A stretch of 63,833 nt of DNA. Source: Rhizaria sp. SCN 62-66. Taxonomy: Eukaryota. Below, in pieces: positions 1,006-62,968 of the stretch. The position numbers and the translations under genes are program-made. The stretch lies in assembly GCA_001724265.1 (NCBI GenBank), contig MEDY01000026.1:62001-125833 (forward strand), given 5' to 3'. Each line of letters opens with the position of its first letter. Position 1 is the stretch's first letter. Under the pieces are notes generated by a model, which searched no databases, was not told the origin of the DNA, and was given only the letters and a program-made list of their open reading frames with translations.

Positions 1006-2648
1006 ATGTCTAAGGCCAAGGCGGACGCCGCCCTCATCACAACTTGCCCCGCGCCGCCCCCCGACTCGGTCTCTGCGCTGAGCTTTGGCCGCGAGTCCGA
1101 CATGCTCGCCGCAGCCTCCTGGGACGGCGCTGTGCGCGTATACAACGGTGCCGCCACTGGCTGCGGCGAGCTGCTTTGGACCGGCGCCGACACCGACCCT
1201 CTGCTCGACTGCACGTTCGGCGTCACCGACGACACGCTCTTCGCCGCCGGCCTCTCAGGCTCTGTCCTCTGCTTCGACCCTTCACAACAGCAGTTGTCCT
1301 CCACCTCATCAGAATCCGCAACTGCATCTGTCGTGGGCAGCCACGACGGCCCCGTCTCGTCTCTCTGCTACGACCCGTTCGTCACGAACACGTTGCTCTC
1401 GGCCGGCTGGGACGGCGCCGTCAAGCAGTGGGACCTCCGCACTGCGTCCCCACTTGTCGCCACGGCCCGTCTTGGTGCAGTCGCAGTCGCCGCTGGCGGC
1501 GGCGTGACCAAGGCCCTCAGCATGGACGCCACAGGCCACAAGCTCGTCGTCGCCGGCACAAACCGCGTGATCGAAGTCTTCGATCTTCGGCGCATGGGGC
1601 GGTTTCTGCAGGCGCGCGAGTCGTCGCTGGCATCGCAAACGCGCCGTGTGCGCTGCAGTCCTGATGGCGAGCGGTTCGTGGTCGCTGGCATGGAAGGGCG
1701 CATTGCAGTCGAGATGATCGATCCGTCGCCTGAGGCACAGGTACGCATAATTGTCACGATTACGGCGTATATCACTTAACATCGCAACATGTGAAATGAA
1801 CTCTAACATTGATTTTAAATCTAAGGTTTTCAATCAACATTTTCATGTCATTCTGCGGTGGAGCAGCTTCATCCTAAGTCCTTCCCCTTTTGATCACTTT
1901 TTGTTTTTGTTTTTGACTCGTATCTATAGGCTCAGAAGTACGCCTTCAAGTGCGCCCAGCAGGCGTTGCCGGACGGCGCGCGCTTCATGTCCCCCATCCA
2001 CGCCCTTTCATTCCACCCCAAAACGCACGCCTTCGCCGCCGGCGCGCAGAATGGCGTTGTGTCGGTGTGGGATGCAGTCGTGAAGAAGCGCATCGCCGCG
2101 TTCCCGGCGCAAAGGTACGCGATACGCGCCATACTGTTAACATTTTTGTCCGCTATATCATACGCGTACATTGTGAGCATTCTTGCATATATTTTTTCTG
2201 CCACTGGACCCTGCTAATGCTATGCCAATGACTGCTGACTCACTCTTATTACTTGACTTGACTCCTGTTATTGTTGATGATGCTGCTGTTTTCCGCTGTA
2301 TATTTCATATTGCGATCAACGTCTGCGGTATGTTAAATCCTGCGACTGACTGCTGCATTCTTCAGTGCCGGCGTCAGTGCACTGGCCTTCTCCCGCTCCG
2401 GCGACCGCTTGGCAGTGGGCATCTCCTACAACTGGGAGTACGGCGCGCCCGCCACTGCCCTGGGACACAGCTCCGCCGCTGCAGGAGCTCAGACCGATCA
2501 CGATGGCGATATTGAGCTTGACACGGAGGCCGAGGCTGAGGAGGGCTGTGTGGCGGTGCCTGAGCTTGCCAAGGGCGTTGTCGCTGGGAAGCCCGCGGTG
2601 TTCATCCGCAAGATGACTGAGGCGCACGTCAAACTCACCGCTAAGTGA
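1006..2648 (+). CDS. BUB3: Mitotic checkpoint WD40 protein Bub3; exons 1006-1740, 1930-2114, 2366-2648
   Basis: WD40 repeats plus the Bub3 signature RESSLASQTR..MEGRIAVEMIDPSPEAQ|AQKYAFKC. Introns 1741-1929 and 2115-2365 (gtacgc..ag) preserve frame. Stop TGA. Confidence 0.9.
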
Positions 2649-3434
2649 ACATGACTGCGATACCTCAACGCGAGTCACTTTTACGGGCGCACTACCTGAG
2701 TCCGGGCGCTTATCTCCGTGTGATCTTATCGGCGGAGTGGCTATTATTGATATGCATATTCTCGTCATTTTATTGATGATAGCATCGTATTGGCATTTTT
2801 TAACAACGATCTAGATTTTCAAATAACATATTCCGTGTTTGTTCGTTTTCTACTTTGCTTTGTGGTTATATCGCTGTATATAGTTTTCCTCAAGCGTTTG
2901 ACCACATATCTTTGACAAAGGTATCTACCATATGAACGTCAGCTGTGCACATTTATATTACTATTTTCAGGCAGTGCAGCTTTTACACGCCTTGATATTT
3001 TAGAGTCAAACTGATAATGCATAGTTCTGTTGTTGAAATCTGTGCATCGATCATGCTTTATAGTCAAAACAAATCGTTGGGGCCATTTTCAAGCACTTTA
3101 CAAGCATACACGCAACCCATCTTCCATAAAGCCTAGGCACGGTAGACAATACCTACTGATATACTAGAAGTTACAATTATCATTTTATTTGACTAAACTT
3201 TTATATAGATATCGATGCAAATGCACGTGTTTGAGTGGGTCGTTCGAAGTTAAGCCGCCAGAGACCGTGAGCTCGGCCAGACTGCACACCGACCGACCGA
3301 CCGACTGGGCAAGGTGACGATTTGTGGGGGTCGTTTTGTGCTTTGTCTTTCGGTTGTTTAGCACCGCTAGCACTTTTTCTACCACTACCGCACTCTACCC
3401 TTCAGTCGGGTTTTTTCTTTTCACCTCAGTCACA

Positions 3435-4435
3435 ATGCTTGGCATGCGCTGCGCCGCGCCGCTGCGGGCGTCTGTTGGCTCTTCCTTCGGTGCTCTCTCG
3501 TCGCTCCTGACCACCTCCCGCGTCGCCCCTGCTGTCCCTGCCGCTTCCACGGTTGCTGCCGTGCCTGCGCGTACTTACCTGGGCCTTATTTCTGGCCCCA
3601 TGACGCTCGGCAACCTTGCCGACGTGCCCGGCGCCCGCAAGATCGCCAAGCGTCTCGGCCGTGGCCGCGCCTCTGGTCTGGGCAAGACTTCCGGCCGTGG
3701 TCAGAAGGGTCAGGGCGCTCGCTCGGGTCTCCGCTCGCTCACGCGTTACGAAGGTGGCCAAACCATGCTTTGGCGCCGCTCCCCGAAGCACGGCTTCAAG
3801 AACATCAACCGCAAGGAGCTGGACGTCGTCAACGTCGACAATCTTGTCAAGTTCATCTCTGCTGGCCGCATTGACGCCTCCAAGACCATCACGATGAAGC
3901 ACCTCGTCGACTCTGGCCTTGTCTCGTCCGTGCGCCACGGCATCAAGCTCTGCGGCCGCGACGCCTCTATGGTGGCCCGTCTGCCTGTCCCTATCAACAT
4001 CGAGGTCACCCACTCCACTGCCCTCGCCCGCGACGCCATCCAGGTACGTTAGCTTCACCGCGATATATCTCAACGTAGTCAGATTCCATGCGATAATGTA
4101 TTTTGTATTGAATTAACAGTTGCCCTAGTTCACGCTTATGTGCAACGTTGTATCTCTCGTCTCTTATCGTCTTCTCGACATGTCGCCGCTTTTTTTGCTT
4201 GTTCGTTTCATTCTCGCAGGAGATGGGCGGCTCTGTCAAGTTCGTCTACTACTCCCGTCTCGCCTTCCACGAGCTCCTCAACCCCGGCTCCCGTCTCTTC
4301 GTTCCCGGCCCGTCCGTCCCGCCCCCGAACAAGACGCTCCGCTATGAGCACCAGCTCTGCGGCAAGCGCGACGAGGAGAAGGCCCAGGAGCTCCGTCTCG
4401 CCCGCATCGTCCGCAAGATCCGTGTCCGCAAGTAA
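3435..4435 (+). CDS. MRPL15: Mitochondrial ribosomal protein uL15m; exons 3435-4043, 4220-4435
   Basis: KRLGRGRASGLGKTSGRGQKGQGAR..EGGQT..PKHGF uL15 motif and an Arg/Ser/Ala-rich, acid-free presequence. Intron gtacgt..cag 4044-4219. Stop TAA. Confidence 0.92.
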
Positions 4436-18809: not shown

Positions 18810-21800
18810 TTATTGCTCGCTCGCCGGCTTCCGAATAACTTGAGTGCGCATAATCCCGCCCCGCGGCGCCTGCGGCAGCGGCACGCGCGCCATCGGCCCC
18901 TGCGCCGGCGCCGGACCGGGCGACGGCCCCGCGCGCGCCGGCCTCGCCCCAGCCGTAGCAGCTGCTCCAGTCAGATCGCTCTTCATGCGCGCGAGGCCCG
19001 GTGCCGCGAGCGCCGGCGATCCCACCGCGGCGCCAGACCCGCGCGCACGCGCCGACGCTGCTCTTGGCACGGAGCCAACAGCGGGCGCGGGAGCGCCGGG
19101 CGAGTCTGTCGCGGCAGCGCTCTTGCGCGCCTCGGCCTTCGCAAGCCGCTCGCGCTCGCGCTGTGCTACTTTGGCTAGGAACGCCGCCTCGCGCGCGGCC
19201 GCAGCGCTGTCCGCGGGCGACATCCCCGCAGCAACCATCGCGGCTGCGGCGCTGGCGGTAGAATCGGAGGCCGTCGGCGACGGCGAGGACCCGAAGCCCG
19301 ACGCGCTGGCGAAGCGGTTGGACGGCGTGGGCGGCGCGAAGTCCGTCTTGACCAGGCAGCCGGAGGGCGAGTGCAGCAGCACGGGTTGCGCGCCACCGCG
19401 ATAAGCCATCAGAGAGCCCGCAGACGGGGACGGCGCCAGCGCGCGCGCGTGCGCATTCGCTCCGACACCAGAGCTGAGCACAGCGGCGGATGCGGACGGG
19501 GCGAGCGGGCGCGCGCCGCTGGCAAGCGGGGGCCGGCTCGCGTTGGAGCCGGCGCTTGCTGTGGGCGTGGGCACTGCAGGCAGCGGGATGTTGGGCCTGC
19601 GCATGCCTGCCACGGCAGAAGCATTCGCACTAGCAGATGGAAACGAGCCACTCTTGCTGACACCTGTGGGCGAGCGCACTGAGCCAGGACGAGTGCCGCC
19701 GACGCCGGCATTGTTGCTCGGTGAGCGCGGGACCTGCTTCGCACTGCTCGGCGAAACCACGGCGCGCGCATTGGTACTGCCGCCAGCAGAGGCGCCCGCT
19801 GCAGGAGTCGACCCGTGGGGCGTCGCCTTGACGCCGGTACGATCGGTGGCAGTGCGGCGCAGCAGCGCGACGCGCGCGGCACGCATGTTCACGCGTTCGG
19901 CGCGGGCGGCCTCACTCTCGTCGTCGCCGTCAGCGGCCGCGCCAAGAGCGGGCGAAGGGCCGGCGAACGACTGCGCGTGCGCTAAATGACCAGGAGCCAA
20001 CATGCTAGCGCCGTTGCTCTCCTCAGCACCGTAGGGGTTGTCGCCGTTGCGCGCGCTCGGCAGCGGCCACTGCACCACAGCCCTCTGCCCCAGCACCACT
20101 CCGTGCGCACTGAGTGACTCTTCCTCGGGCAGAGTCGCCAGTACGGCGTCCCTGTCGCCGGCGCAGTTGCCCTGCAGAGGCCGGTCGTCCGCAAACGGTG
20201 TCACGCCGCCGTAGTCGCTGTCTGTCGCGCCCGTGCCGCCACGCCTGTGCACGATTTCGCTGTGCGTGTTGGTGCTGGCGCCGGCGCCTGCGTGGGTGTC
20301 GCTATCGGGGAACGGCGAGTCAGCAAACGAACCGCCTGCGGTGCTGGCGATGTCGATATGCAGTCCAGCAGAGGCCAAACGGGCGAGCGGGGAGGCCCGA
20401 CCGTCGAGAGCGTTGACACCAACACCCGACTGCGACCGCGATCGCGAGGGTGACAAATCAGACTGCGAATTGACGGACACCGGCGGCAGAGGACTGCCTG
20501 AGACCTTGATGTCAACTTCAAACGCGTCTTCGCCACCGTTGCCGCCGGCACTCCCAGTGGCGTCACTGTTGCTGCCGTTGCTCTTGGCTGCCGCCGCCGC
20601 AAGCATCATGTCCCGCTTCCACGCCTTGATATCGCCGCGGCTCGACGCCGCAGCAGGACGGACGCGAGTGGGCGCAGGTGCCGGCGACTCGGTGCTATTG
20701 CTATCGACGAGAGCAGGTGAGGCAACGGGCGTCGCGGCGGCGGCGTTCTTGCGGGCTGCGGCGATTGCAGCGCGCAGCGGAGGGCGCGCTGCAGGTGCAG
20801 GCGCAGCAGCAGCAGCAGCAGTAGCGGGCGCCGCGCGCGCGGGCAGCGGCGAGGGCGTCGCAGCAGCAGCTGCTGCCTTCGGCCCGAGCATCGGCGTCAC
20901 CACCACCCCAGCAGCGGAGGCAGCTGCGACCGAATCAGACGCCGTCGAGTCGCCCGTAGCGTCGCTGTCGCCGGCCTTTTTGCCATAGTAGCGCTCCACC
21001 ATTGCGCCGCGACGCAGGAACTGCTTTTGTTTCGGCGGCTCGGCCGCAGCAGCCGCCGCCGCAGCTGCAGCTGCAGGAGTCGAGGCCGGCGTGCGGCCCT
21101 TGCCCTTGGCGGCCGCGCTCGCAGCGCTGGCGCTGGGGGTCTTGGCGCGCGCCTTGCCGCTGGGCGCAGCAACACGGCCCTGCACCGCTGCGCTGGCCTT
21201 GGCGAGCTTGGCGTTTGCGCCCGCGGCAGCGCCACGCTTGGGGGCAGCCGCACCGGCCGCGGCAGCGCGCGCCTTAGCGGGATCAGAGCAGAACGCGGCA
21301 TAGATTTGCGCCATCTGCTCGTCTTCGTCAGGCTCGGCGGGGCCGGCGGGACAGATGATCTCGCCGCCACTGACAGCCTTGTTTTTGCTGCCGTTGCCAC
21401 CATTGCTGGTGTTCGCAGCGGCAGCGGCTGCTGCGGCGGCCGGGAGCAAGCCTGGGGGTAGCGGACCAGTGACCGCGTTGGCAAAGGCAAACGAGATGTC
21501 GATCCCATCCTCGCTGACGTTACAGTTCTCGCTTGAGTTCGCGGCAGCAACAGCTTCTGCAGATGACGACACAAGCTTCTGCGTGTTCATGGCCATCGCC
21601 GCTGCAAAAATGTCGGCGAACGCAGCCGGACTGTTAATGCCACCCTCGCTGCCACTGTTGCTGTTGTTTGCGGACGGCGCGTTATACGCAATGGGACGCA
21701 CACCACCCTTCTTCGCAACAGCGCCGACAGAACCAGCCACAACCGCAGCGGCCTTGCTGGGTGATTTGACCGGGGACGCGCGCAACTGGCCCATCATAGA

Positions 21801-42500: not shown

Positions 42501-45113
42501 ATGCGACATTGTCGTGTCAAAATCGATCACGTCGTCGTCGTCGTCGTCGTCGTCATCATCGTCGTCCTCGTCGTCGTCGCCGTCGCGCGCAGTCGGCCCG
42601 GCAGCAGTCATGACAATCGCAACCGAGCCCATGTCGTTCGCCATACTAGTATGGCTAGAAGAAGCGTTCGCAGAGGCGGCAGCGTTGTGAGGAGTCACGA
42701 CATTGCTCGCATCTGTATCATCGTCGACAAGGTCGTCGCTGTCGTTCGTGGTGCCACGTTCATCGTCGGTCTCGTCGCCACCCTTGTCCACGCCAGAGTC
42801 TAAGGGGCTGTCTAAGGGGGTCGCCGCGGCGCCGTCTAAGGGCCGCGTGATGGAAAGACTGCTCAGTGCTAAGGAGTCACAGCTACTGTCGGCGAGCCTG
42901 CTGAAAGACTGTGAGCTGCTCAGCAAATCATCCTCCAACTCCTTCTTGATATGGTCATTGTTATTGCTGCTGTTGCGTTTGTTACTGCTCTGCGTCGTAT
43001 TGGCGGTGTTGGCTCTGACGAGAGTGAAGTTCGCGCTGGAGCCGCGACCGAGGCTCTGCGCAGTCAACGAGGGCTGCACTCCAAGCGAGCCGGTGACGCT
43101 GGGCGGCGACACATGAGACAGAGTCGTGCTCGCGTTCTCTCCACACCCGACACCGACCGTGCTCGCACTGGCGCTCGTGAGGCTGGTGTCGGACACGGTG
43201 TCGCTCTCAGCCGCGGCGGCGTCATCGCTCTTCAGACGAGTCGTCACCGTGGCCTCTGTGCGGACGTCGCTCTTGCCAGCGACACTGTGGAGTCGTTTGC
43301 TGCCGCCGAGAGTATCGGTGTTGAGTGAGATCACGGATGACTCGGCGAAACTGCTCGACGGCGTGTTCATCAGCGTCGTCTGCTCACCTGCGCTCACATC
43401 CACGTTCGAGTGGGCATTCACACTCTTGCTGTTGTTGTTATTATTGCTGTCAGAGTTAGACCGCGAGTACTCGTTCGGCGCCCATGTGACAGTCTTTCCA
43501 GCTAACCCAGTCACGATCCCAGAGCCAGCACCAGAGCCTGAGTCACTGCCAGGGTCAATCCCATGTGCAATGAAGCCAGGGCCAGAGTCAGGGCCAGGGC
43601 CAGGGCCAGATCCGGAGAATGAACCAAAGCTAGGTGCGCTGCTGCTGGCCGTAGGGCGCTGAGGCTGTGCGAACCGCGGTTGCGCTGACGGCCGTTGCAG
43701 CGGCAGAATCGTCGCGTTGGCGGATGACACGGTGGGGGAACGCAGGGGAAGTCTGAGTCCGCCGCCATTCGCAGTCGCACTGTCGATGCCACTGGTGGCG
43801 CCAACGTCTAAACCGCCGCCAAGCTTGCTGTGGTGGCCGCGGTGACCGCCGTGGCCGCTATGGCCGCGCAGACTGTGAGTCCGAGAGACAGCGGAGTGAC
43901 CGTGAGAAGAGTGACCGTGAGCGCCCGATCCCACACCACTGCCCGGCACCACACCCGCGGCCCCCACAACTGTCGGCCCCGCAGCCACTATGCCCAGGGT
44001 TCCGCCCACGGGCCCCATGCCCACAGTCATGCCCACGGTCATCGGCGTGGCGATGGTGGCACCGGCAAGCTCTCGCGGCAGCACAAGCACACGGAGCTGG
44101 TCAGACAGTGTTTTCACCACAGATTCCGCTTCGACCCGCGCGCGAGTGACCGTGAGCAGCGAACCTGCGTGGCCGCACTTAGCGCGCACATGGAGCGCTT
44201 CGCTGCGTTTCCTGTTCTCAGACTCGATGCTGGTCCGCATTGCGGCGGTGTAGCCGTCACTGTCGACCCTGTCGTCGTCGTCGGGGCCGTCTTTGTCGTC
44301 TTCGTCGTCGTCATGGCTCCTGTCGCTGGCACTGCTATCACTGCTCTCGCTCAGAGTATCGCTGCAGCTGCCGCTGGTGCCGTTCTTGTCGTGATTGCTT
44401 TTGTTCTCAGCGGCTTCACGGCAGTCGGCTTCCGCGGCGGCGGCGGGCCTGGTGCGCTGGTACTCCTCGCACAGATACGGCGTCCCCGCGGCCGGTACGC
44501 TGTACCGCGCAACCGCCCGCGCAAGACAGCGGCCGCCCAACAGCGCATGCAAGCACCGCAGTGGTGAGCCATTCGCGGTGTCGCACTTCCCGCAGCAGCA
44601 CGCTTGGTCGTCCTTCTTGTTTTCATCGACACACTCCGTGGCCTCTGCGTCGGCGTCTTTGCGCGCAGCACGGAGCGCCTGCTTGAACTCCTTCGTGCCG
44701 TGTCCGTGCCGGGCTTGCAGCGCGAGCACAGTAGTCTGGGCCCGCCACAGCGCGCGCGGCAACCGGAACGGGATCGCGCGCGCCTGCGCGCTCAGAGCTG
44801 CAGCCTCGGCCGCGGCGCGCGCGGCGTCGGCTGCAGATTGCGCGAGCTGGCCGGGGTTTGCACCCGGTCCGCCCCCGTCAGCAACGGCTCCAGGGCGGCG
44901 CTGGCTCGGAGGGATATAGCGACGTTTACACGGCGCCGCGGCAGCGAGCAGTGCCACAACCGGCTCCACAGGTACTGTGCCGGCGGAGGAGGACGATGTC
45001 GCCGACGATGAAGAGGATGTGGAAGAATACGAGTGAGTTGTTGGGGAGGGAGCCGAGGCGGCCGGGTTTGGCGCCGGCTCGGGGCCGATCAGGCCCGGCG
45101 CGGACGGCAACAT
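33537..45113 (-). CDS. Giant (~3850 aa) low-complexity protein with a C-terminal type-II (gamma-like) PI4-kinase domain; reads through TAG 33705-33707 to TGA 33537-33539
   Basis: NELLAYYLD..FAGVPET, IALLDFRILNLDRNEGNMLV, VIPIDHALALP, WKWLSHP. Likely ATG 45113 (MLPSAPG); the frame is open up to ATG 45452. After the TAG, 55 coding-like codons follow (EWVSWRLEYLKNLAMGPAVEMERWVAVMLRKIVQQSLLVAWYVLEKQRKQTRQCR). Confidence 0.8.
37195..37256 (-). repeat. CAG/CAA polyglutamine microsatellite in the PI4K-like gene
   Basis: (tgc/tgt)n on the + strand; encodes QQQQQSQQQQQQQQQQQQQQ. Confidence 0.85.
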
Positions 45114-45740: not shown

Positions 45741-48700
45741 TCAATCGGATCCTCCACCACTGCCGCCTCGCAACAACTGTGTTATGAGGTCCATGCCTCC
45801 CAGCACGTCTTGATGTAGGTTCATCAGCGGAGACGTTCCCACGACCCCGCGCATCGCGTGTGTTGCACGTGCTGTACCCGCAACTTCTTTCTCTCCCCAC
45901 GTGCGCGCCGCAGCCACCGCTGCCGTCGCTGCCCTGCGCGCGCCCTCAGTGCTCGCGCCGTCATCATCGCAACTTCCAGCCAACGCTGCTGTAGTTGCAG
46001 CCGCGAGGTCGCGCTCCCACGCGTCAGCAGTTGCGCTGCGTGCCCCGCGCACCGCCACGGCCGCGCACAGACAGAGGTCCGCGTCGCAGCCGGGCGTTAC
46101 GACCCACCGCGCCTTAGCTTTGGACTTGCTCCTGGTCCGCGTCTCGCGTGCTCCAGCGCCCGCTGCCAGCCGCGCGGTGCTGCCGGTCACCAGCTGCGGT
46201 GACCAATCCGCCTGGACCGCCTCGAGGACCGTGAGCGCGGTCCGCAGCATTGCGACTGAGCGACGGCCAGGGGCGCTCTCAGCGCGCGCTGCGGCGGCCA
46301 CGGCTGCGGCGACGGCGTCGGCCTCCGCAACGGCTTTGGCATCATCCCCATCATCCGCGTCACTTTCAGCGCTGTCATCGTCGTCAACCATTGCGTTTGC
46401 GGCGGAGTTGCTGTTGTTGTGAATGCGGTCTGAGTCGCTAACGCGGTTGAGAGCCGGGTGTGGTGATGGGCCAGGGTCGCCTGCAGTTGTCCTGACTACA
46501 CTTACGGCATCCGCATCAACAGCGTTTGTTCCCCCGTTGCCTGGGCGTGGCCGCGTTGTGAGAGCAAACATTGATTTGTCTCTTTGGGGCCCGTGGCCGG
46601 CAACGCCTGTGTCATTGTTGTCCGCGACAGGAACGCGGCTCACAGTCACCGGCTCGCTTGTCAGTTGCGCCCAGTCTGTCCCTGCATCCGCACCTGCTGC
46701 GACGCCGTCGACATCAATCGTCGCACTGACAATGTCGCCATCTGCCATCACAATACCACCGCCGCCGATGCTTTTAGATGACGTGGCTGCTTCGAACCTC
46801 GCCGCCTCAGCCTCCGCTGCAGCCTCCGCGGCGACCGCAGCTGGGTCCTTCACGAGCTTGATCCCAGCACCAGGCCTGGCGGCGCGCCGCAGTCGCCCCA
46901 ACCGACGCGCAGTCTCTTCGCAGTGCCCGATAGCGGTGGCGATGCGTGCCACCGCTGCGGCCACGGTCACGCAGCCGCCGACGCCAGCCGAGACTTCTGG
47001 CACAGCGCGGAAAGTTAAACCGCGGTGTGTTAACACTGTTCCGCTGCGAGCTGCTGTTGTGGCGGGGTCATCTTGTGCAAGTGTGCGGCTGTTTGCGACG
47101 CTAGGTTGAGCGCAGAGAGACGAAGCCGTGAGCAAGAAAAGCGGCGCTGCGACGGGCCACCAGTGTGGGTACAGCTCGCCAGTGACCGTGACTAGCCTCA
47201 GTAGCTCAGAATCACGCTCGCTGGCTATATCCATATCAGCTGTTTGAGAGATTGCGGCAACTGTAGGATCACTCACAATGGTTTGCACTGGCGTTGGCGC
47301 AGTCGCAGCGACTTCTTGCGGCGTGAGATGAGGCAATAGACTCGAAAGCCACAAAGCTGCCAGTGCAAACTGCCCCCTCGAGAGCGCATACATGTCGTTG
47401 CTCTCTTCAGCGAGCGCTTGCCACTCGCTCTCTGCAGTAACACTTGCACTACCACTGCTCGTACGCGCAGTGAAAGCATCATGTGCTGCGTCCTCAGCGA
47501 GAGCCGCTGCTTCACCAGCTGCTCCCCATGCAGACAGCGACGTGCGGCTTAACTTCTGCACGACCTCTCCACTTTCGGCAACGTCGGCCTCTAGTGCCCT
47601 CCACCCGGCCGGTGCCGCAGCAGCGATTGGCAGCCACCCACGCACTGCGCACGCCGCATTGCGCGCGGCGTCTGTGCTGGCGTCAGCGAGTAAGAGCCTT
47701 GCGCGCACAAGAGATGCGAGCGATGAAAACACGCTGTAAGGAATGTACACTGCGTTTACGGAGGAGTCATTGTCAAAACAACCTTCCTTACTCTGGCCGC
47801 GAAGTGATTGCTCCGGTGGCACAGCGAAAACCACGGCTGGACATCCCGGAAGGCCTTGCTGTGTCAGTATGATCGATGCGTATCCCCACAAGGCGCTTTC
47901 GATTTCACTCGCAGCTCCACCGACAGTCGCAGCGCCTGTCCCGATGCCGCGGTTTGCGATACCACGCATAAATCCATCGCCAACGGTGAGCAGCCCGCCG
48001 TGTTCAAGAGCGCTGGCCTCGATCTTAACTTCTGCATCAACATCGCCACCACATAGCAGCACAGTGTGCAGTCGCAGGCCCGCTGGCGCAGCTGTTGGCG
48101 TTGCGCCGCTGACGCCGCTGAGCGCGCGCGCCGAACGTGATTTGTGCTTGTCTATGGCTCGCAACGTCTCTGCACGGCCGGCAATTGTGGTTGCGGTTGC
48201 CAAGGCTTCTTGCGTGATTGTCGTGAGGAGAGATGATTCCGGGTCACTTACGCCAGTGCCCGCACCGCGGCGTCCGATGCCAACGATGACTTCCTGCTTT
48301 TGACTCTCATTCTCCACATCGGTGTCTTCTTCTTCTCTGTCACGCGCAGTACGAGCGCGCTTTGTATTGTGAGAGCTTTGCTGAGCGGGTGGCTCCTTCA
48401 CAGTGAGTAACATGAGCGGCGGTGGTGCCGCAGCGTAACTATAGTTCATGATTTCGCTAACAACACGACGGTAATTCGTGTGAAACGCTGCTGTTAGCGC
48501 GGCGATCGAAGTCAGGCCGCGTTTCTCACGGTCACGCAACAGTCGTCGCTGAGCTTCGCGAGCTTCCCTCTGCTGGTGCACGCTCACAATGTTGCTCTTG
48601 TTTTCAGTCTCGGTGTTACCATCGTACTTCTCGTCGCTGGACTCTGCATGCAATGCAGCTGCCATTGCTGTCGTCGCAGCTGAATTGGCCTCTTCTTGAA

Positions 48701-51700
48701 CCAACAACCGTAGAAGTGCTGAGCCAAGGGACGCTAGAGTCAAGGCCCACAATGCAGGAGCTTTTTGTTCTATCTCAGATGATTGTGTTCTCTGCTTATT
48801 GAAATGGGGGAACGTGACGGTATCGACTGCATCAAGATACCTCTGCCCTCCGTGGCTGACACAATCGCAGGCAAACAACGCTGCGGCCGCCTGATCAGCA
48901 ACAGTGAGCTCATTCAGATCAGTGACACCGCTACCGTCATCGTCAATGACAGACGCGATCAGAGTGTGAGTATAACATTGCAACACACCCCAGGCGACGG
49001 CAACAGAAGCCTCACCCTGCCAACCCACTGGCCCACTGAAGCAGACTGAAGGCTCACTGAGGCCTGTCACTCGCACACGCGCCGCCACCGCAGCAGCATG
49101 GAGTAAGTCCATGTCTGCATCGGCTTTGTTCTGCGCTGCGGTTGCTAATGGTATCAGGCCGACAACGACGGCGAAGGTTAACGCCTTGCGCAGTCCAGCC
49201 TTGATCCACGCGTGATTTTGCTTACGTGGATCTGAGACTGCTGCTGTTTTATTTGCACTCAATGACGTTAAGGCGACTGAAGCAAGGTGTAACACGGATG
49301 TCACGACAGCGATTGGTTCTTGTAAGGACGTGTACGCGCTCGTCAGAGTGGACTGGAGTGTGATTCGATTTGCTGATAGTTCTTGTAGTGCAGCGGTTTG
49401 GTTTACTATCTCGTGGTTACACTCGCGCATGCGTTCATGAAGCGTGCTAATGTGGACATTGCTCTCTTCATGCGGCTGTGCCTTACTTTTTTCATTTGCA
49501 TGACTTTCCGTCACTCGCTGCTGCTATATCATTCTGATCTGCTACTTTAACTCCTCCTGTGATGCGCGCTGCTGCTCTAACTGCAGCGCTGTCGTTGCAG
49601 TTTTTACATCGGTCCGCTCGATCTCTACTGCGGTGCTTGCAAGCGTCTCCAAAGCAGAGTTTACCGCCATCAGTGAAGCCATGAGCGTTGACACCATCGC
49701 CGCGGGCGTCACTATCGGCACTGCTGTTGCACCTGCATCGACGCTCAACACAAGCGCGCGTATGGCATGGTTCACAAGCGCAACGTCACTTGCAACGATG
49801 GGGCACAATGCGATGTCGTCAACTTCGCCGCTCTCTTGCATGACACCAACACTCTCGGTAGGCACCCTGTCAGTCTAGGTCGATATTGCTGCATCAATGT
49901 GTCCGCACAGAGCCCACTGCCGTACATTACTACTGTGGGCCCACGACTGCGTCGAAACACCTGCTCTTTGCTCGACAAGTACGCTTGCCGCAGCACTCGC
50001 TCCGCCACCCAGCAAGCTTGCTCCGCGCCATGCTGCAGCGAGACAGCGTCGCAGTACAGGGCTCTGGGTTACAGCAATGGGCGCATTTGTGATGTCAACG
50101 TTGCGTGCGCGCCAAAGCCAGTGCCACAGCGCAATATGCTTTGGGGCAAAAACGACTGGGACTGTCGGGCTTAGTAGGGCGTGTGCGAGTTGTGACTGCA
50201 GCTTGTGGAACGTCTCTAGTATTGCGCTTAGAGGGGCTGTATCGATGAGCGAAGGTAAAATCAACTCCTCCTCCTCTTCTGTGCCTTGTTGAGAGACGCT
50301 ACCGAGTGCGCTGGCACTGCGAATCTTGTCACAGAGTATTGACATAATGTTATCCTCACAAAACGTCGTGAAAAGTGCAATGCTGTTAAGGCAGCGCAAG
50401 GAGAGTGACTCGAACGCAGAGAATACGTGGGTGTCCAATATAGCTGCGACAGCGGAAGCAGCAAGCACAAACCGCGGAAGGGCTAGTATTGTCTCTGCCG
50501 ACATACTCTCTGGCTGTGTTGAGAGCAGCGTATGTGTTGTTGTGTCTGCCGAAAGCTGCGTGACTGTGAGCGCTAGTACCGATGCTAACGCGTCGTCAAT
50601 CCCAACTCCTGCTGGCAATGGCAACAACAGCATTTCTGGTTCCATCAATACCGCTCGTGCCTCCATCACAGCGTCACTCTCGGCCGCTGCAGCGGAGCTA
50701 CTTCCTCTACGACGTACTGGAGAGTGTGGCGGCGTGAGCTGGTACTCCTCAACACCAACACTGACATTCGCGCGATCTGCGTAATTTGCCGTGTTATTCG
50801 CGTTGCGTCGTGAACCAAGACCACGCCGTAGTGGCGACTGCCAGCCTCCAGCTCTCGGGGAGACCAGCCCTTCAGTCGCTCGAGATTGCGACTGACCAAG
50901 ACTGTCCAGGAGTTTGTGCGCTTCCAATTTGCGCTGACGTTGATCCTCAACTTCTACGGTGTCAGTTGTCGCTGTTGCGACTGACGCTAGCAGTTCAGCA
51001 GGCGTGAAGATAACACCGCTGCGCACAAGCTCTGTGAGGACAATCGCCGTCGTACTTGTGGTTCCTTTTTGAGGGCGCGATGGTAGCTGACGTTCGCGCA
51101 GTTCTACAAGCGATCGCGGGCAACCTTGCAGCGAGCCTACAGAGTCTACAAGAGTTCGCTTCTGTTGATCGTGGATTGAGCGTCCACTATAGTTATCGAC
51201 AACATTCGTGATGATGTACACACCTGCTTCAAGCGTTTGCTCAGCGACATTTTTGATATCATTTTTGAAGATGTTGTCAAGCGTTGCAATCTTGTGAAAG
51301 CCTAACCGTGTGATGATCTCAACATGCTCGCAGAGCAACGGAACATATGCCTTAAGCCTTGAAAGTAACTGCTTGCCAGTACTGCGACCAGCAACCCACT
51401 CGCTTTTAACATGCTCGCATAATAGCACTGTAGCTTTTAGCCTTACAAGGAAACTTCGAAGCGGGGTAAGCACCGTGGCGGCATCATTCACTGTCGCGAC
51501 TATGTCGAGTCCAGGCGAAAGTTCAGGGACAGCTGCGGACCGGAGCTTAGCAAGTGCCGCTCGTTCAGCGCTGCCAAACTCAAGAACGGATAGCGCAAAT
51601 GGAGCAGCTGCTGTGCGCAAAGAACAGTTGCTGACAAGTGTGCTACGCTGTGACACAGTTGAACGTTGATCAGCTTGGTAAGGAGTGGCCCAGAGCCGGG

Positions 51701-54700
51701 ACCCATCAAGTAGCGCACACGCTAGTGTGACCCACGGCGACAGTGTAACATCTCGTGTTGTTGTTTCAGTTAGCATGGCAGATGACCCAGCCTGTGAGGC
51801 GACAGCGGAACGCCCCAGTGCATTGCGCAATCGCAGTTGAAGTAAACCGTCAATGCCTTCTTCCCCGAATGTAACACTTGCCGACTTTGCCGACGCAGAC
51901 TCGCATCGGCGTGTATGTTTTGCAAGCAGCCGACTTGCAGTTGCAAACAGACTGCCACCGGCTGCTGTCAAGGAAGCATCAGTTTCTGCCGTGTCGCGCA
52001 CTACTGTGTAATCATGTAGAGATCCACCGATAGCTCCACCCTGCATTGCGACTGCCCTCGAGATCAAGATCAGTTGTGCTGCTACAGGAATGTTGCCGGC
52101 GCCTGCACCCACGCGTCGTATCTGCCAGCCAGCGCCAGCTCCGGTAGTAGCCAGCCACAACGCAGACGCAGACTAGACATCAGCCCATGCTGCTGTACCG
52201 ACGAATGCCGACTGGGCGACAGCAATTGCAGCAGCTACAGCTGATTGTGCAAGTGCTACGCGACGGTCAGCGATGCCCTTTGTGTCACCGGTCGCAGAGT
52301 CGCCCCAACGCGCAACCGGCGCCGCCGTGGCGGGTACTGCTGTGACACCAGCGCCAGCAGTTGCAACGGGCCAAGCCTGAGTCGCCGCGATTGACACAAC
52401 TCCGGATGCGGATGTAGAGCCCCATGACGCATATTTCATGTCTTCAATGCGACTTAGCATGCTTCCGAGTGTGGTTACGAGCAGCGAGTGGATGAGTATC
52501 AGCGATAAACCACTCAAAGTGACACGCACAATCTCATTATGAGCTGGACTCATATCTTCATTGACGTCGATGTGCTGTGTCCGAGAGGTGAGAGCTGTAA
52601 GAGCGCGGGCCACCGCGAGTGAGCAGGCAACAGTGAGGCCCCTGCGAAGCCCGCGTGGCAACGCAAGAGCAGCACCTGCTGGTGCCCCGTCACCTCCAGC
52701 GTTTGATGCCGTGGTATTTGGACGTGGAAATGGTGGTGTCGGGGCCGGCGACAGAGCGTTGAGAGCGCACGCATCACAGATAGCGTTATATGCATGAGCG
52801 AGCGCAGTGTTCAGTTTAGCATCACCTGCTGCTGCGGTAAGCATAATAAAATGGTTTAGCGGCCGCATGAGCTCCGCTGTGGTTGCAGCCGCATGTGCGG
52901 TTGTCAGACCGCCACGAACTGATGCAGCCGTACTAATCGCGACGGCGCAGTCTGTGTACTGCGTGAGCACTGAGTACAACGCAGACGCTAGTTGTGTCTC
53001 AGTCACCGCGACTTGCACTGCACCAGTGATACCAGTGACTCCTGTCGCAGCGGACGTGAGGCTGACCGTGGGGATAGCAGCGACGGGCGCCACTAACCCG
53101 AGTCCTGCAGCTGCTGCACCAACAACGTGAGACTCGATGTCAGCACTGGCCAGCCCAGCTGCCGCAGCGAGCGCAGGCGTGATCATGGTACTGTCACCTT
53201 GTACTGCAGGAACAGCCGTCGCCATCGTGGTGTTTGCCCAATGCGAAAGCACTGTTGGTCCAGACGCTGCAGCGAACGCGACAGCGGCACAACTTGGGGT
53301 GCGCAGCATCAGTGCCGTCAGGAGGTCAAGTGTTAGCCCGGCGTAGCACCGAGAATGTGGCACTGCCGATAACGGCCCGATCAACCTTGTCGCAATAAAA
53401 CGGGCGATAATACTGCTGAGAGCGGCATCGTTATCATCGGCTGTGACAGGGTGGTTGCCTGTTGTCAATATACGGAGTAGCTCACCGCGGACAGAGTGCA
53501 CGGGAAGCATCGTATTTTCCCCTTCACTATTAAGGCCCTGCCTGACTGCATCAGCTGCCATGGCGTTGGCGCGCTCAATCGCTGCGCTGACGCCAACGCC
53601 GGCGGCCGTGACCCACGATCGCGCGACAGCATCTGTGGCCATTAAGTCAAGCAAGAGTCCCGGCGCAGGCACGGACACGGCTGCTGTTTGCATCCACTTC
53701 AATGCTGCTGTTGCTGATGCTGGAATCGGGCTAGCGTTAGTTTCGTCGGTATCTTGCTCAGACATTGTTGTCAAGGCTTTGAGCAGAGGACTGTCAGCGT
53801 TCGGCCACCGCACGCGCTCGCGCATCCATGCTAGTGCAGGTGCCTGTGGCAGAGTCAATACATGACTTTGCCACTCGTCAGGCTTTTCGATGCTGGTGAT
53901 GAGACTACGAGAGACGCCGCCGAGCGCTGGTACCGTGAGCTGTCCGCGTCTTGGCACAAGCCACCGAGGCCACGCGACCTGTCCCGCCGCTGCGAGTGCT
54001 GAGAGCGCCGTCGCCACCGTTAACAGCGCTGCGCCAGCAACAGAACCAGCGGTGCCCGCATTGTTGTGCGCAGCTGGGCAATGTACCGTAATGGCCGAGA
54101 GCAAGATTATGTCCAAGTCTGGCACGCACGCTGCAATCGCCTCGACCACTGTCTCGGACGCGTCGACTGTGGAGATCAACAGCGATAATGCATTATGATC
54201 AGCATCAGTTGCGCTGTCGGACATAGCTGTTGTGGCGCGACCGGTGCTGCTAACTGTGGGCACCCACGACAGCGGATGCGTTGCAGGCCGCAGACGCAGT
54301 AAGCACGCCAGCAAGTCAGCGCCGATCAGAACGGTCGCCGCATCAACTGACGCTACGCAAGTCTGTACTACTGAGAGCATTATCGTCAAACTAGTGGGGC
54401 TTAATAGAGCGATTGCGTTGGTCAATGGTTGCGGTGCCGCCCGCGGCAGCACAGGCACCACACTGTCAGCGGCTTCGACCAGCATGTCGTTGCTGTCTAC
54501 CGTCTCTTCTTCAGCCAGGACGACGGCCGCTACCGCTGTTGCACTGACGGCGACTGGAGCCTCGGCCACAGTGGTGACGTTCTTCTTCTTTTTGGTGCTT
54601 GCCGTTGCCACTGCGCTCTGCGCTGCGTTCGCCGCGGCAGCTGCAGCGGCTGCAGATGCAAATGCAGAGCACGCGAGCCTTCCATTTGGGGTTGCTGTCG

Positions 54701-55076
54701 CGATGAAACTGGTCGTCTCGCGCATGAACTGCCACAGCAACCGCAGAGGCGCACACGAAGCGACTGTGAGCGCGTCTTGCCGTGAGTCCAGCGGTGGGAT
54801 CTGCTCGAGGAACGTGTCGGTCATGTAGCCAACGCCGAGTCCAATCTCGGCCCAATCTGTCATGCAACGGCCCTGTGTTGCTGCCACCGCAGCAATTGCT
54901 GCCTCAAACCAGAACAAAGCGCTCGATGACGGGTCATATACAGATGCCGCCGCGGTGACGGCAGCCGGTAAGCTTTGGTGTGCGGAGAGCATCATGTTGA
55001 GGTACGACGCGATGAGGTCCTCGAACGCTGACAGCGATGCGAACCACTCGGCCCGTGTAATACCCTTTATCATCAT
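45741..55076 (-). CDS. Single ~3110-aa protein of unknown function (helical-rich with a central coiled coil) with four in-frame TAG codons (52173-5, 49875-7, 49542-4, 49524-6)
   Basis: Track ORFs 52173-55076, 49875-52160, 49542-49865 and 45741-49514 share one frame (9336 nt = 3112 codons) and are separated only by TAG; terminal stop TGA. Possible extra 5' exon ending at 55169 (gtacgt donor 55168, aag acceptor 55065). Confidence 0.8.
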
Positions 55077-55745
55077 AACAAGGATGCATGGATGTCATTA
55101 AGTGAGTTATCTTGGCGTCTGAGTAAGCTGATATGTTCAAGTCCAAACAATATTACTTGAAGACGTACACGGAATGCAAGACAGATTGACTTAAAGAGAG
55201 GCACTGACTGGCCGAGCGGATGCGTCTGAATCATTGTGACACACTGCAGGCCACAATGTGCACAGAACATGTTACGGCTCAGAGATATCTGAAAACACAT
55301 ACGTGGGTCTTGCGAGAAGCGGTTACACTCAAGCTTAAACATTTTGCTCAATGTTGACGCTTGGACAAAGCCAATCGCGACTTGAAGCCTTGACTCTGAA
55401 TACGTGACTACTTTTCTACGGACTATTCGCGAAGGCGGAGGATACAATATGCGCATTATTTAGTTTAATTTTCTATAAATACAATAATTATTCTAATTTT
55501 AAATTCAAACGGGTAATTCCTGCGATAGGTCGACTTAGAGTTGACCTACATCAACTCGACTTTAGGTAGCCGAAAAGTAGTTGGTTTGTTGTTGTTGATT
55601 TGTATTGGTTTGTAATTTTGTTTGTTTTTAATGGTTTTCGTTTCTGATTTTTGTTTGTTTTTTAAGCGATTTTTTCGTTTCTTTTTAGTTTTGTTGGTTT
55701 CGTTTCTCTTCGTCTTTCTTACAAGCTCTGCTGTCTGTCAAGGCG

Positions 55746-56876
55746 TTACATCTGATAGCCACCGCGGCCGCCGCGCATCCCTCCGCCCATCATACCGCCG
55801 CCGCGCCCGCCTCCGCCCATCATGCCCCCGCCGCGGCCCGCCCCGCCGCCTCCGCGACCGCCGCCACCGCGGCCACCGCGGTAGCCCGAGCCGCCCATCT
55901 TCCCGCCGTAGCCCTGGCCGTGGTAACCGCCGCCGCTGCCGCCGCCCATGCCGCCCATGCCGCCCTGGTGTGGTTGGTAGTACGCGTCGCTGCTCCCGCC
56001 GTACCCGCCCGCGCCACCGGCGCCGCCCGCGTTGCTCCCGTACCCGCCGTGGCTGTGGCCATTGCCGCTGCCGCCGCCGCCGTAGCGCGCCTGCTTGCCC
56101 TTGTACCCCCCGCCGTGGTGTCCACCGTGATGGTTATGGTGATGGTAGGTCGGTTTCCCGATCGCGGCCACCGGCGGCGGGCCCATCAGCGCGCCGAGGT
56201 CCTGCGCGCGGCCCTCTTGCGCAGCCTGCGCAGCGCGCGCCTCTTGCTGCAGCCGCACAGACAGCGGACCCCATTCAAGTGTGTCGCCGTACAGCCCCCC
56301 GGAGAGGGCCTCGGGCGTCAGCATGCCTTCAAGCCCGAGCTTCGCGCCCTTGGCCCCCACGAGCTCCTCGAACGCGGCGTGCAGGCAGCGGGAAACTTCG
56401 CGGTACGTTACGACCATGAGCGTCGTTTCCTGCCGGTTCGCGAGTACGATGTGCTCGTCAGCACCGGCGTCGAGCTTGTTGAGCATATCCGTCAGCAGAC
56501 CAAAGTCGACGTTGGCGGTGCCGTCGCCGTTGACCTGGTGGAACAGGTAGTCGCGGAACAGCTTGAGCAAGTACCGATCGCCGGTCTCGGCCCACTGTGG
56601 GTTCGATTGGAACTCAGGCCGCTCGTTGACATAACCCAGCTTCGCGAGCAGCCGGTTGAGGCGACTTGTGTGCACTTCACGGGCGAGCGCGTGATCCATA
56701 ACGTCGTTCATCATTGCCTGCGCCTGCAGCTCAGTCACGACTCGATCCGTGATCGAGTGCAAGATGCCAGACACGGTCACAGTGGCGACCGCGGTCACCG
56801 CGGGCGGGGCAGAGTTGTTGCCGGCGGAGGAGGATGACGCGTCACCGCTCTGAGCGCCACTGCCGTCACCGTCATC

Positions 56877-56909
<33 letters not shown>

Positions 56910-61387: not shown

Positions 61388-62968
61388 ATGGCTTACAACA
61401 ACAACCAAGTCGCGGACTTGACCGCGCAGATGACTTATGCCAACTTTTCTGACTTATTGTGGGCTATTGTCGACTGCGAGGCCTGCAACTCCTTCAGTCC
61501 TACTTGCGGCTGCCGCCACAACTGGGCCGACATCGTCCCCGCACGCTACTTCGCCGCTCTCCAGCAAGACCTGCGCAAGGCCCAGCCGTCCTCCTCGCGC
61601 AGCGCCTCTGTGCCCACGCTGACTATCACCCCTGCGGCGCTGTCCACAGTCTTCGCAGCCTTCTGCGTGCGCGCCACCGACGTTGCTGTGGTAGTCCTCG
61701 GCCAAGAACCCAGTCGCAACGCCGTCGAAGTCACGACTCAGAACCACGGCTCTCGCCGCGGCGCCGCGTCCAAGCACACCGTCGACTACAACAGCGGTTT
61801 TGCCTTTTGCACGAGTCACTCCTCCGCTGTCACAGCTATACCGACGGTGCGCCACTGGGTCGAAGAGCTCTACAACTGTCTCGCGCCCCTCAACAAAGGA
61901 CTCGACACCGACGACAAGTGCACTGAGCTGCTGCGCCGCGTCGACCTCGCGCCCCCCGAGCACCAGCTCTCGTCCCTCGGCCCGTTCCTTGCGCGCCAGG
62001 GCGTTCTGCTGCTCAACTCCGCGCTCACTCTCGCCAACGGCACCTCGTTGTCACACCAGTCCGCATGGCGCAAGTTCGTACGCATGATCCTGGGCTCCGT
62101 CGCCACCGCGCGCCGCGGCCGTGTCGTGTTGGTCACGCTCGGCACCGTTGCCCGCGAGGCCTCCAGCGGCATTGGGGCCAGCTATCTGGCTTCTTTATAC
62201 GCTGGTCATCCGTCACTAGAGAACCGTGATGTGTTAACCGACGGCGCGCCGCATCAGTTCATCGGCTCCAACGTCTTCCGCCGCGCCAACGACGTTCTCA
62301 CGCGGTATAAAGTCGCCACAATTGCGCCCGAGGACGACGTGCGGTGCCGCAACGTGCCCGCGGGGGTCGGCGTCCAGTGGCTACCGCGGCTCTGGCTGCC
62401 GCGGGCCTGGCGCGAGCGGCCGCAGCTGACTTCGGTGAACCTGCCGGCGCGCCGCGCGCGGGAGTTGGAGCCAGAACAGGCCCCGCTTAGCAACGGACAT
62501 GGCGGTAATGGCAACGGTGATGCCATGAACAATGGCAAGAAGGGCAACAACAATAACGGTGGTGGCATCAACGACGATACGGATGACGACAACGACGGTC
62601 ATTACGGGCAGCAGCGGCGCCCGCCGCAGCCGGGAAGCAACCAACGGAAGCGCGGGAAGAAGAAGGATGGCAATAACAATAGTAACCCTGCTTCCCCTGC
62701 TCGCAGTAAGGGTAACAACAACAACAGCAGTCACAGCCAGAACCACAGCAGCGGCGGCGGTCAGAACAACGGAGCTGACGAAAATGAGCCATACGAGGAC
62801 CGTGACCACGAGCTTGCTGCACCGCAGTACACTGCGGAGGACGAGGCGCGCTATGCGGCGTACAAGATCAAGATTGAGAGCATGAACAACAACAGCAACA
62901 ACAACAACAACGGTAACTTCAGCGGCAGCAACAGTTTCAACAGCTCCGGACGCATGGGACCGACGTGA
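61388..62968 (+). CDS. Divergent family-1 uracil-DNA-glycosylase-like protein with an N-terminal Cys motif and Asn/Gly-rich tail
   Basis: VVVLGQEPS (canonical GQDPY), GFAF, ARQGVLLLNSALT, SHQSAWRKF, LVTLG, GHPS, FIGSNVFRRANDVL. Stop TGA. Confidence 0.85.
   Translation: MAYNNNQVADLTAQMTYANFSDLLWAIVDCEACNSFSPTCGCRHNWADIVPARYFAALQQDLRKAQPSSSRSASVPTLTITPAALSTVFAAFCVRATDVAVVVLGQEPSRNAVEVTTQNHGSRRGAASKHTVDYNSGFAFCTSHSSAVTAIPTVRHWVEELYNCLAPLNKGLDTDDKCTELLRRVDLAPPEHQLSSLGPFLARQGVLLLNSALTLANGTSLSHQSAWRKFVRMILGSVATARRGRVVLVTLGTVAREASSGIGASYLASLYAGHPSLENRDVLTDGAPHQFIGSNVFRRANDVLTRYKVATIAPEDDVRCRNVPAGVGVQWLPRLWLPRAWRERPQLTSVNLPARRARELEPEQAPLSNGHGGNGNGDAMNNGKKGNNNNGGGINDDTDDDNDGHYGQQRRPPQPGSNQRKRGKKKDGNNNSNPASPARSKGNNNNSSHSQNHSSGGGQNNGADENEPYEDRDHELAAPQYTAEDEARYAAYKIKIESMNNNSNNNNNGNFSGSNSFNSSGRMGPT

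What the first reader, a model, noticed from the sequence alone, without database searches (positions are those of the whole stretch)
1006..62968. UAG decoupled from UAA: stops are 7 TGA, 5 TAA, 0 TAG in a mitochondriate eukaryote
Seen: TAA ends uL15m, NEK, GNAT, the DExH helicase and PAN3, mostly followed by AT-rich UTR; TGA ends the other seven (two of them after TAG read-through). Established: UAA and UAG usually change meaning together (many ciliates, hexamitine diplomonads, some ulvophytes). UAG-only reassignment is rare (Gln in the fornicate Iotanema and some phyllopharyngean ciliates, Leu in a sainouroid rhizarian). Inference: a mitoribosomal gene argues against a fornicate, and long introns with GC-rich exons are not typical of ciliates, so this may be a new independent origin.
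Basis: partly seen in the sequence, partly recalled or inferred. Interest (0 to 1): 0.88.

Follow-up and report, generated by a model that had tools for sequence, protein, structure and literature searches.

The report
TAG read as sense, TAA stops
In this contig of an unidentified GC-rich wastewater eukaryote no gene ends in TAG, while six TAG codons sit inside otherwise open coding frames, so TAG alone is probably translated; the case rests on few codons and needs the whole genome.

Summary
The stop tally is right. Twelve complete genes end in 7 TGA, 5 TAA and 0 TAG. I find six in-frame TAGs in three genes:
- Four lie in a 3117-codon frame with no TAA or TGA.
- One lies 56 codons before the TGA of a giant PI3/4-kinase-like gene.
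- One lies in exon 1 of the GNAT gene.

G+C stays at coding level across every TAG and drops right after true TGA stops. Contigs of an independent run carry the same four TAGs in the 3117-codon frame, so they are not assembly errors. None sits next to the strict AG|GTAYG donor seen at all nine assigned introns. No TAA or TGA interrupts about 17,000 codons.

Weak points:
- The two big genes have no homologues, so no TAG aligns to a conserved residue and the amino acid is unknown. Gln is weakly favoured by context.
- 0 of 12 is a small sample.
- The window holds no tRNA gene and no eRF1.
- No whole genome is held.
- The organism could not be placed. Its only close relative is one unnamed metagenome protein.

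Verdict: probably a UAG-only reassignment with UAA and UGA kept as stops (about 0.65). This is a new member of a rare known kind. An independent origin is untested.

The parts
45741..55094 (-). 3117-codon frame of an orphan gene (P0001). It is open only if four TAGs are read, has no TAA or TGA inside, and ends in TGA at 45741-45743.
   Evidence: Standard-code gene calls in public data cut it into four pieces exactly at the TAGs (P0123-P0126).
52173..52175 (-). In-frame TAG, codon 974 of P0001.
   Evidence: G+C is 0.55-0.67 on both sides. The same base is found in an independent run's contig, X2 record 5.
49875..49877 (-). In-frame TAG, codon 1740 of P0001. A 51-nt in-frame GTACGG...TAG stretch (49925-49875) could be a mini-intron, but this looks unlikely.
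   Evidence: The stretch lacks the AG before GT that all 9 assigned donors have. It is 55% G+C by my count.
49542..49544 (-). In-frame TAG, codon 1851 of P0001, followed by CAG.
   Evidence: It lies inside a predicted helix with pLDDT 91-95.
49524..49526 (-). In-frame TAG, codon 1857 of P0001, followed by CAG CAG.
33537..45113 (-). Giant gene (P0002) with a C-terminal PI3/PI4-kinase-like domain. One TAG lies 56 codons before the TGA at 33537-33539.
33705..33707 (-). In-frame TAG, codon 3926 of the P0002 frame.
   Evidence: G+C is 0.55-0.67 from the TAG to the TGA, then 0.25-0.35. 41 of the 55 codons after the TAG end in G or C (my count).
25120..25473 (+). GNAT gene exon 1, with donor AG|GTACGT at 25472-25479. 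Exon 2 is 25733-26572 and ends in TAA.
   Evidence: Pfam matches GNAT in exon 2 only.
25333..25335 (+). In-frame TAG in GNAT exon 1.
   Evidence: Codon scores are +11.7 upstream and +6.1 downstream. G+C is 0.55-0.67 across it.
4433..4435 (+). TAA terminator of uL15m.
18810..18812 (-). TAA terminator of the NEK-like kinase.
26570..26572 (+). TAA terminator of GNAT.
32722..32724 (+). TAA terminator of the R3H/DExH helicase.
55746..55748 (-). TAA terminator of PAN3.

Best explanation
The organism reads UAG as a rare sense codon and keeps UAA and UGA as terminators.

Shown: TAG lies inside three coding frames and ends none of 12 genes. TAA and TGA end all 12 and interrupt none.

Inferred: a tRNA with anticodon CUA, which pairs with UAG but not UAA, decodes it, and eRF1 has lost or weakened UAG recognition. 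Neither gene is in the window.

The amino acid is not determined. Gln is my weak favourite, for three reasons. Two of the six TAGs are directly followed by CAG. Two sit at what I read as non-core positions of a predicted helix. UAG to Gln is the commonest precedent. Ser and Leu are not excluded.

Usage is very low: 6 TAGs in about 17,000 codons, all in long or low-complexity parts of genes.
For: 1. The frame 45741-55094 has 4 TAG, 0 TAA and 0 TGA in 3117 codons. Off-frames of the same strand carry 2.5-2.9 TAA+TGA per 100 codons. By hand, a 765-codon stretch would stay open by chance about 5e-9 of the time. The pieces abut with no spacer, and G+C stays at 0.45-0.68 across the TAGs. After the true TGA it falls to 0.18-0.28.
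2. In P0002, coding-level G+C and GC3 run past the TAG to the TGA, and AT-rich sequence starts right after the TGA.
3. The GNAT exon 1 TAG has the strongest two-sided coding score of any TAG in the window. It sits mid-way in the GC-rich exon block.
4. 0 of 12 terminators are TAG.
5. All 9 of 9 assigned intron donors read AG|GTAYG. None lies beside an in-frame TAG.
6. Contigs of an independent run (X2 records 4 and 5, a different study and year) carry the same four P0001 TAGs. They differ only at 51460 and 51874.
7. Codons 1851 and 1857 fall in a helix (model residues 98-168, pLDDT 91-95) that pairs with a helix downstream of them (single-sequence model).
8. PolyA-RNA run X8 has contigs in three of the four large P0001 pieces. 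The tool warns that DNA may be present in such a library.
Against: - No TAG aligns with any homologue. P0001 has none beyond its own pieces, both in 1.84 billion representatives and among full-length candidates. The P0002 tail has none either. Exon 1 of GNAT has no Pfam match at E up to 10.
- The conserved genes (BUB3, uL15m, NEK, helicase, PAN3, 5'-nucleotidase) contain no TAG at all.
- My codon-usage score did not mark the P0001 or P0002 TAGs as coding on both sides. Only 25333 passed, and 49544 scored +5.2 upstream and -1.7 downstream.
- With GC-rich codon usage, most nonsense mutations would give TAG anyway, so 'all TAG' is not strong evidence against pseudogenes.
- 0 of 12 leaves up to about 22% TAG terminators possible.
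- The window has no tRNA gene.
- No clear RNA evidence spans a TAG.
Confidence: 0.65

Rival explanations
1. The code is standard and the six in-frame TAGs have ordinary causes. P0001 is a recently decayed or polymorphic pseudogene with nonsense mutations. P0002 really ends at its TAG. GNAT translation starts at the ATG downstream of the TAG (25434). One TAG is the acceptor of a 51-nt mini-intron. The 0 of 12 TAG terminators is sampling luck.
For: - No homology supports any TAG.
- The TAG flanks in P0001 and P0002 did not pass the codon score.
- An in-frame GTACGG...TAG of 51 nt exists at 49925-49875.
- An ATG follows the GNAT TAG.
- 0.8^12 = 0.07 is not rare (by hand).
- GC-rich codon usage favours TAG among nonsense mutations (inference).
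Against: - It needs three separate special pleas in 13 genes.
- P0001 has four nonsense codons, yet no frameshift and no TAA or TGA in 9.3 kb.
- G+C stays at coding level past every TAG and collapses only at TGA.
- The mini-intron lacks the AG|GT seen in 9 of 9 donors and is 55% G+C, against AT-rich introns of 121-257 nt.
- The P0001 TAGs are identical in an independent sample.
Confidence: 0.2
2. UAG is ambiguous. It still terminates some genes but is read through efficiently in certain contexts, either by near-cognate tRNA or by a low-level suppressor. These genes would then yield extended products without a full reassignment.
For: - TAG is very rare inside genes: 6 in about 17,000 codons.
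- It is absent from the conserved, presumably highly expressed genes.
- The sample of 12 terminators cannot exclude some TAG stops.
- Context-dependent stop/sense codes exist in other eukaryotes (listing and abstracts of PMC4967479 and 10.1101/2022.04.12.488043).
Against: - Four read-throughs in series within one 3117-codon gene would give almost no full-length product unless each were near 100% efficient. That is reassignment in practice.
- No TAG terminator was seen (0 of 12).
Confidence: 0.1

Closest known systems
Iotanema spirale (Fornicata) and some ciliates (Protocruzia, two phyllopharyngean lineages): UAG=Gln with UAA and UGA as stops. That this pattern matches NCBI table 15 is my recollection.
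   Same: Only UAG is reassigned and UAA is kept as a stop (passages of PMC5304391, and PMC11687900). The window shows the same pattern: in-frame TAG, TAA and TGA terminators.
   Different: The amino acid here is not established. This organism has a mitoribosomal protein gene, GC-rich exons and 121-257 nt introns. TAG is far rarer here.
Rhizarian exLh (Sainouroidea): UAG=Leu
   Same: UAG-only reassignment in a non-ciliate, with UAA and UGA as the only terminators (PMC5304391 passages).
   Different: exLh has 384 in-frame UAGs in 71 genes, and its stops are 56 UAA to 15 UGA. Here there are 6 TAGs in about 13 genes and 7 TGA to 5 TAA. Two TAGs here sit at what I read as non-core helix positions next to Gln codons, which fits Leu less well. 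That is a weak inference. A relationship to Sainouroidea could not be tested.
Scotinosphaera (green alga): UAG=Ser with UAA kept as a stop
   Same: UAG-only reassignment in a non-ciliate eukaryote (one passage of PMC11687900). Three of the six TAGs here adjoin Ser codons.
   Different: The helicase's best named matches are fungi, animals and Thecamonas. A Chlamydomonas protein comes far down the list. That is a weak argument against a green alga. The original Scotinosphaera paper was not found in the library.
UAR=Gln codes (many ciliates, hexamitid diplomonads, some ulvophytes, Amoeboaphelidium)
   Same: A stop codon of the UAR pair is read as sense.
   Different: TAA is not sense here. There are 0 in-frame TAAs in about 17,000 codons, and 5 genes end in TAA with non-coding sequence after it.

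Membership tests
UAG-only sense reassignment (UAA and UGA remain stops) | In-frame UAG inside coding sequences of several genes. | tested here: met
   There are 6 TAGs in 3 of 13 genes, judged by frame continuity, G+C level and splice-site checks. This rests on no homology.
UAG-only sense reassignment (UAA and UGA remain stops) | UAG codons align with one amino acid at conserved positions of orthologues. | tested here: inconclusive
   No homologue covers any TAG. Both scans of metagenome contigs were empty.
UAG-only sense reassignment (UAA and UGA remain stops) | UAG is not used as a terminator. | tested here: met
   0 of 12 complete genes end in TAG. With so small a sample, up to about 22% TAG stops is not excluded.
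UAG-only sense reassignment (UAA and UGA remain stops) | UAA is retained as a terminator and never appears in frame. | tested here: met
   5 of 12 genes end in TAA with non-coding sequence after it. No in-frame TAA was seen in about 17,000 codons.
UAG-only sense reassignment (UAA and UGA remain stops) | A cognate tRNA with anticodon CUA. | tested here: inconclusive
   ARAGORN found 0 tRNA genes and Rfam found 0 families in the window. The rest of the genome is not held.
UAG-only sense reassignment (UAA and UGA remain stops) | eRF1 altered in stop-codon recognition. | not testable with these tools
   No eRF1 gene was found among the window's annotated ORFs, and no genome is held.
UAR=Gln code (NCBI table 6 type) | TAA as well as TAG occurs in frame, and TGA is the only stop. 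| tested here: not met
   There is no in-frame TAA, and 5 genes end in TAA.
Codes with all three stops ambiguous (Condylostoma, karyorelicts, Blastocrithidia) | In-frame TGA and TAA as well as TAG. | tested here: not met
   With TAG opened, the long frames contain no TGA or TAA.
Rhizarian exLh lineage (UAG=Leu) | Abundant UAG (about 5 per gene) and UAA as the dominant stop. | tested here: not met
   Here there are 6 TAGs in about 13 genes and 7 TGA to 5 TAA. exLh has 384 UAGs in 71 genes and 56 UAA to 15 UGA (PMC5304391 passages). Kinship itself was not tested.

The most novel reading that the evidence does not exclude
An unplaced, mitochondrion-bearing, GC-rich eukaryote lineage from wastewater and bioreactors has reassigned UAG alone, independently of ciliates, Iotanema, the rhizarian exLh and Scotinosphaera. 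At least two species are in public assemblies. It is caught at an early, low-usage stage: about 0.035% of codons, and none in the conserved genes. It would be a natural example of the start of stop-codon capture, with UAA and UGA both still in use as stops.
Probability: 0.3. Interest if true: 0.8.

Novelty: new member of a known kind. Interest (0 to 1): 0.6.

Why it matters
Nuclear codes in which UAG and UAA differ are rare. Passages of PMC11687900 name only about three non-ciliate cases. Each such code shows how a CUA-anticodon tRNA and eRF1 can separate two codons that usually change together.

A further case would help in three ways. It would come from a GC-rich organism, it would have very low UAG usage, and it recurs in wastewater data sets of several studies. 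That would give a view of an early stage of reassignment.

It also matters in practice. Standard-code gene callers already cut this organism's genes at TAG.

Tried and rejected
- **Whole genome:** not held.
- **Script box:** lost. The per-site GC3 table, the phylogeny and a proper coding model were therefore not run. Later counts were made by hand from printed sequence.
- **Codon-usage log-odds**: poorly specific. In-frame 40-codon windows scored 7.6 +/- 4.9, off-frame windows -7.5 +/- 7.9. At a threshold above 2 on both sides, 12 TAG, 19 TAA and 28 TGA passed, mostly antisense frames or stop clusters in short introns. Only one of the six in-frame TAGs passed.
- **Homologues of P0001:** none among 8000 scored full-length candidates. 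In 1.84 billion representatives, only its own four pieces.
- **Homologues of the P0002 C-terminus:** none. No PDB sequence match either.
- **JGI metagenome scans** with P0001 and with a lineage-specific helicase alignment: no relative, so no further DNA of the lineage.
- **Read laying**: all runs are contigs and the RNA status of X2, X5 and X6 is doubtful. No joint was seen at any TAG, and no contig of a clear RNA run spans one. This gives no verdict on splicing. The PAN3 5' intron meant as a control was not bridged either.
- **AF2 model of the P0002 C-terminus:** mean pLDDT 36, unusable.
- **Atlas search with PAN3:** only generic PAN3 clusters, nothing taxonomic.
- **Atlas search with a P0001 part:** not carried out.
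- **Cluster look-up of the nearest helicase relatives:** no names.
- **Papers:** three searches for a described wastewater or non-ciliate UAG-only lineage found none matching this organism. One search for Scotinosphaera found no further paper. PMC12021597 passages do not mention genetic codes. Supplements were not opened.
Full report
**What the window is.** It is 63.8 kb at about 60% G+C. GC-rich coding blocks alternate with AT-rich introns and spacers. No whole genome is held. Public runs that contain the stretch are bioreactor, wastewater, activated-sludge and fuel-cell metagenomes from six studies, so this is a contig of an uncultured eukaryote. The window has no tRNA gene and no Rfam family.

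**Genes** (Pfam):
- RPA1 fragment, 3-593 (-)
- BUB3-like WD40 protein
- mitoribosomal uL15
- 5'-nucleotidase
- a repeat protein, 9719-11734
- a 1964-codon low-complexity gene
- NEK-like kinase
- GNAT acetyltransferase
- an R3H/DExH helicase
- a giant gene of about 3,900 codons with a PI3/PI4-kinase-like C-terminus (P0002)
- a 3117-codon orphan (P0001)
- PAN3
- two tandem UNG-like genes

**Introns.** Introns read directly are AT-rich and 121-257 nt long. Their donors follow AG|GTAYG. The motif AGGTAYG occurs 15 times, against 7.4 +/- 2.8 in shuffles. Nine of the fifteen lie on the sense strand at positions I assign to introns of modelled genes. One more lies inside the P0002 ORF.

**The observation.** I read every gene end.
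- TGA ends seven genes.
- TAA ends five.
- TAG ends none.
- The TAGs that close standard-code ORFs at 4050, 22706, 27655 and 1927 are intron sequence or splice acceptors.

On its own it is weak. If TAG made up 20% of stops, 0 of 12 would still happen 7% of the time (by hand).

**In-frame TAGs in P0001.** With TAG opened, the frame 45741-55094 (-) is 3117 codons long, with four TAGs and no TAA or TGA.
- Off-frames on this strand carry 2.5-2.9 TAA+TGA per 100 codons. The 973-, 765- and 1260-codon pieces are therefore each far too long to be open by chance. The 110-codon piece alone could be, at about 6% (by hand).
- The pieces abut in one frame with a single TAG between them.
- G+C does not fall at the TAGs: 0.45-0.68. 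It falls to 0.18-0.28 straight after the final TGA.

**In-frame TAG in P0002.** The TAG at 33705 is followed by 55 more codons, of which 41 end in G or C (my count). G+C stays at 0.55-0.67 up to the TGA, then drops to 0.25-0.35.

**In-frame TAG in GNAT.**
- The exon ends at a canonical AG|GTACGT donor and joins exon 2 in frame.
- It is the TAG with the highest two-sided coding score in the window, +11.7 and +6.1.

**Controls and caveats.**
- Sequencing error is excluded for the P0001 TAGs. Contigs of run X2 (another study, ten years later) cover them with differences only at 51460 and 51874.
- Splicing cannot be settled from the runs. All are contigs and none from a clear RNA library spans a TAG.
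- One TAG (49875) ends an in-frame 51-nt GTACGG...TAG stretch. This stretch lacks the AG before GT, is 55% G+C, and is less than half the length of any intron seen. I count it as an unlikely mini-intron.
- My codon-usage score did not mark the P0001 or P0002 TAG flanks as coding on both sides. These genes are compositionally weaker than the training set.
- A single-sequence AlphaFold model of P0001 residues 1700-2000 puts codons 1851 and 1857 inside a helix (model residues 98-168, pLDDT 91-95) that pairs with a helix encoded downstream. The P0002 tail model was unusable.

**Homology.** This is the main gap. P0001 has no relatives. A full-length search returned nothing. In 1.84 billion representatives the only hits are its own four pieces, cut exactly at the TAGs by standard-code gene calling. 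The P0002 C-terminus also found nothing, and GNAT exon 1 has no Pfam match. So no TAG can be aligned to a conserved residue, and the conserved genes of the window contain no TAG.

**The amino acid.** It is undetermined. Weak hints for Gln:
- Two of six TAGs are followed by CAG.
- Codons 1851 and 1857 fall at what I read as non-core heptad positions.

Three TAGs adjoin Ser codons, so Ser is not excluded. Leu is not excluded either.

**TAA.** It behaves as a stop. Five genes end in it, with non-coding sequence after it. No in-frame TAA occurs in about 17,000 codons, which is my sum of ORF lengths. This separates the window from UAR=Gln codes. In-frame TGA is also absent, which separates it from codes with no dedicated stop.

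**Who it is.** The helicase exon finds itself (P0003, 100%). It also finds one unnamed ENA metagenome protein, P0004, at 61% identity over 98% of the query by BLASTP and 69% in the MAFFT alignment. Everything else matches only the helicase core at about 30-50% identity: fungi, animals, Thecamonas, Creolimax and unnamed entries. Cluster look-ups gave no names. Both JGI metagenome scans were empty. The lineage therefore has at least two members in public assemblies but no named close relative. I could not place it.

**Comparison with known cases.** Passages of PMC5304391 and PMC11687900 list these UAG-only nuclear reassignments:

| Lineage | UAG meaning |
|---|---|
| Rhizarian exLh | Leu |
| Iotanema | Gln |
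| Scotinosphaera | Ser |
| Protocruzia | Gln |
| Phyllopharyngean ciliates | Gln twice, Leu once |

The pattern here (TAG sense, TAA and TGA stops) is of that kind. It differs from exLh in usage. exLh has 384 UAGs in 71 genes and 56 UAA to 15 UGA stops. Here there are 6 TAGs in about 13 genes and 7 TGA to 5 TAA.

**Verdict.**
- TAG is most likely a rare sense codon with TAA and TGA as stops (0.65).
- A standard code with three separately explained anomalies is possible (0.2).
- Leaky or ambiguous UAG is possible (0.1).
- The mechanism (a tRNA with anticodon CUA and changed eRF1 specificity) is inferred from established knowledge and was not seen here.
- Independent origin is open.
- It is a new member of a known, rare kind.
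- The decisive work is genome-wide and is listed under next steps.

Noticed in passing
window 61376-62968 (+) and 63489-63833 (+, runs off the end): Two tandem paralogous genes share a Cys-rich N-terminal motif (C..C..PTC.CR.NW.D..P..YF). By my own reading of a motif resembling GQ(E/D)P they look UNG-like. Pfam gave no match.
   Followed up: partly
window 2649-2660, 9707-9718 (-), about 5870-5880 (-), 62975-62985: A short motif (C/T)ATGAC(T/C) recurs just after, or within about 150 nt of, several TGA stops. It may be a 3'-end signal. No chance test was run.
   Followed up: no
window-wide; 1739, 2113, 4042, 22826, 25472, 27605, 28258, 28744, 59786: The intron donor consensus AG|GTAYG is very strict. 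Nine of nine assigned introns carry it. There are 15 matches in the window against 7.4 expected, and 0 of 100 shuffles reached 15.
   Followed up: yes
window 38618-38624 (-): An AGGTACG donor-like site lies inside the uninterrupted P0002 ORF. Whether an optional intron starts there was not examined.
   Followed up: no
window 9719-11734 (-): This gene encodes many copies of a motif like (A)FKATPDPVVK, then a hydrophobic stretch, then a C-terminal region of repeated KLDS/KVD units. It has only sub-threshold Pfam matches.
   Followed up: no
P0004 (protein): An unnamed ENA metagenome protein is 61-69% identical to the window's helicase over its whole length. It points to a second species of the same unplaced lineage. 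Its DNA could not be fetched, so its stop codon and any TAGs are unknown.
   Followed up: partly
window 33537-45482 (-) and 12748-18642 (+): These genes are extremely long and low-complexity, rich in Ala, Ser, Gln and Asn. P0002 carries its only recognisable domain, PI3_PI4_kinase at E 2e-9, at the far C-terminus.
   Followed up: partly
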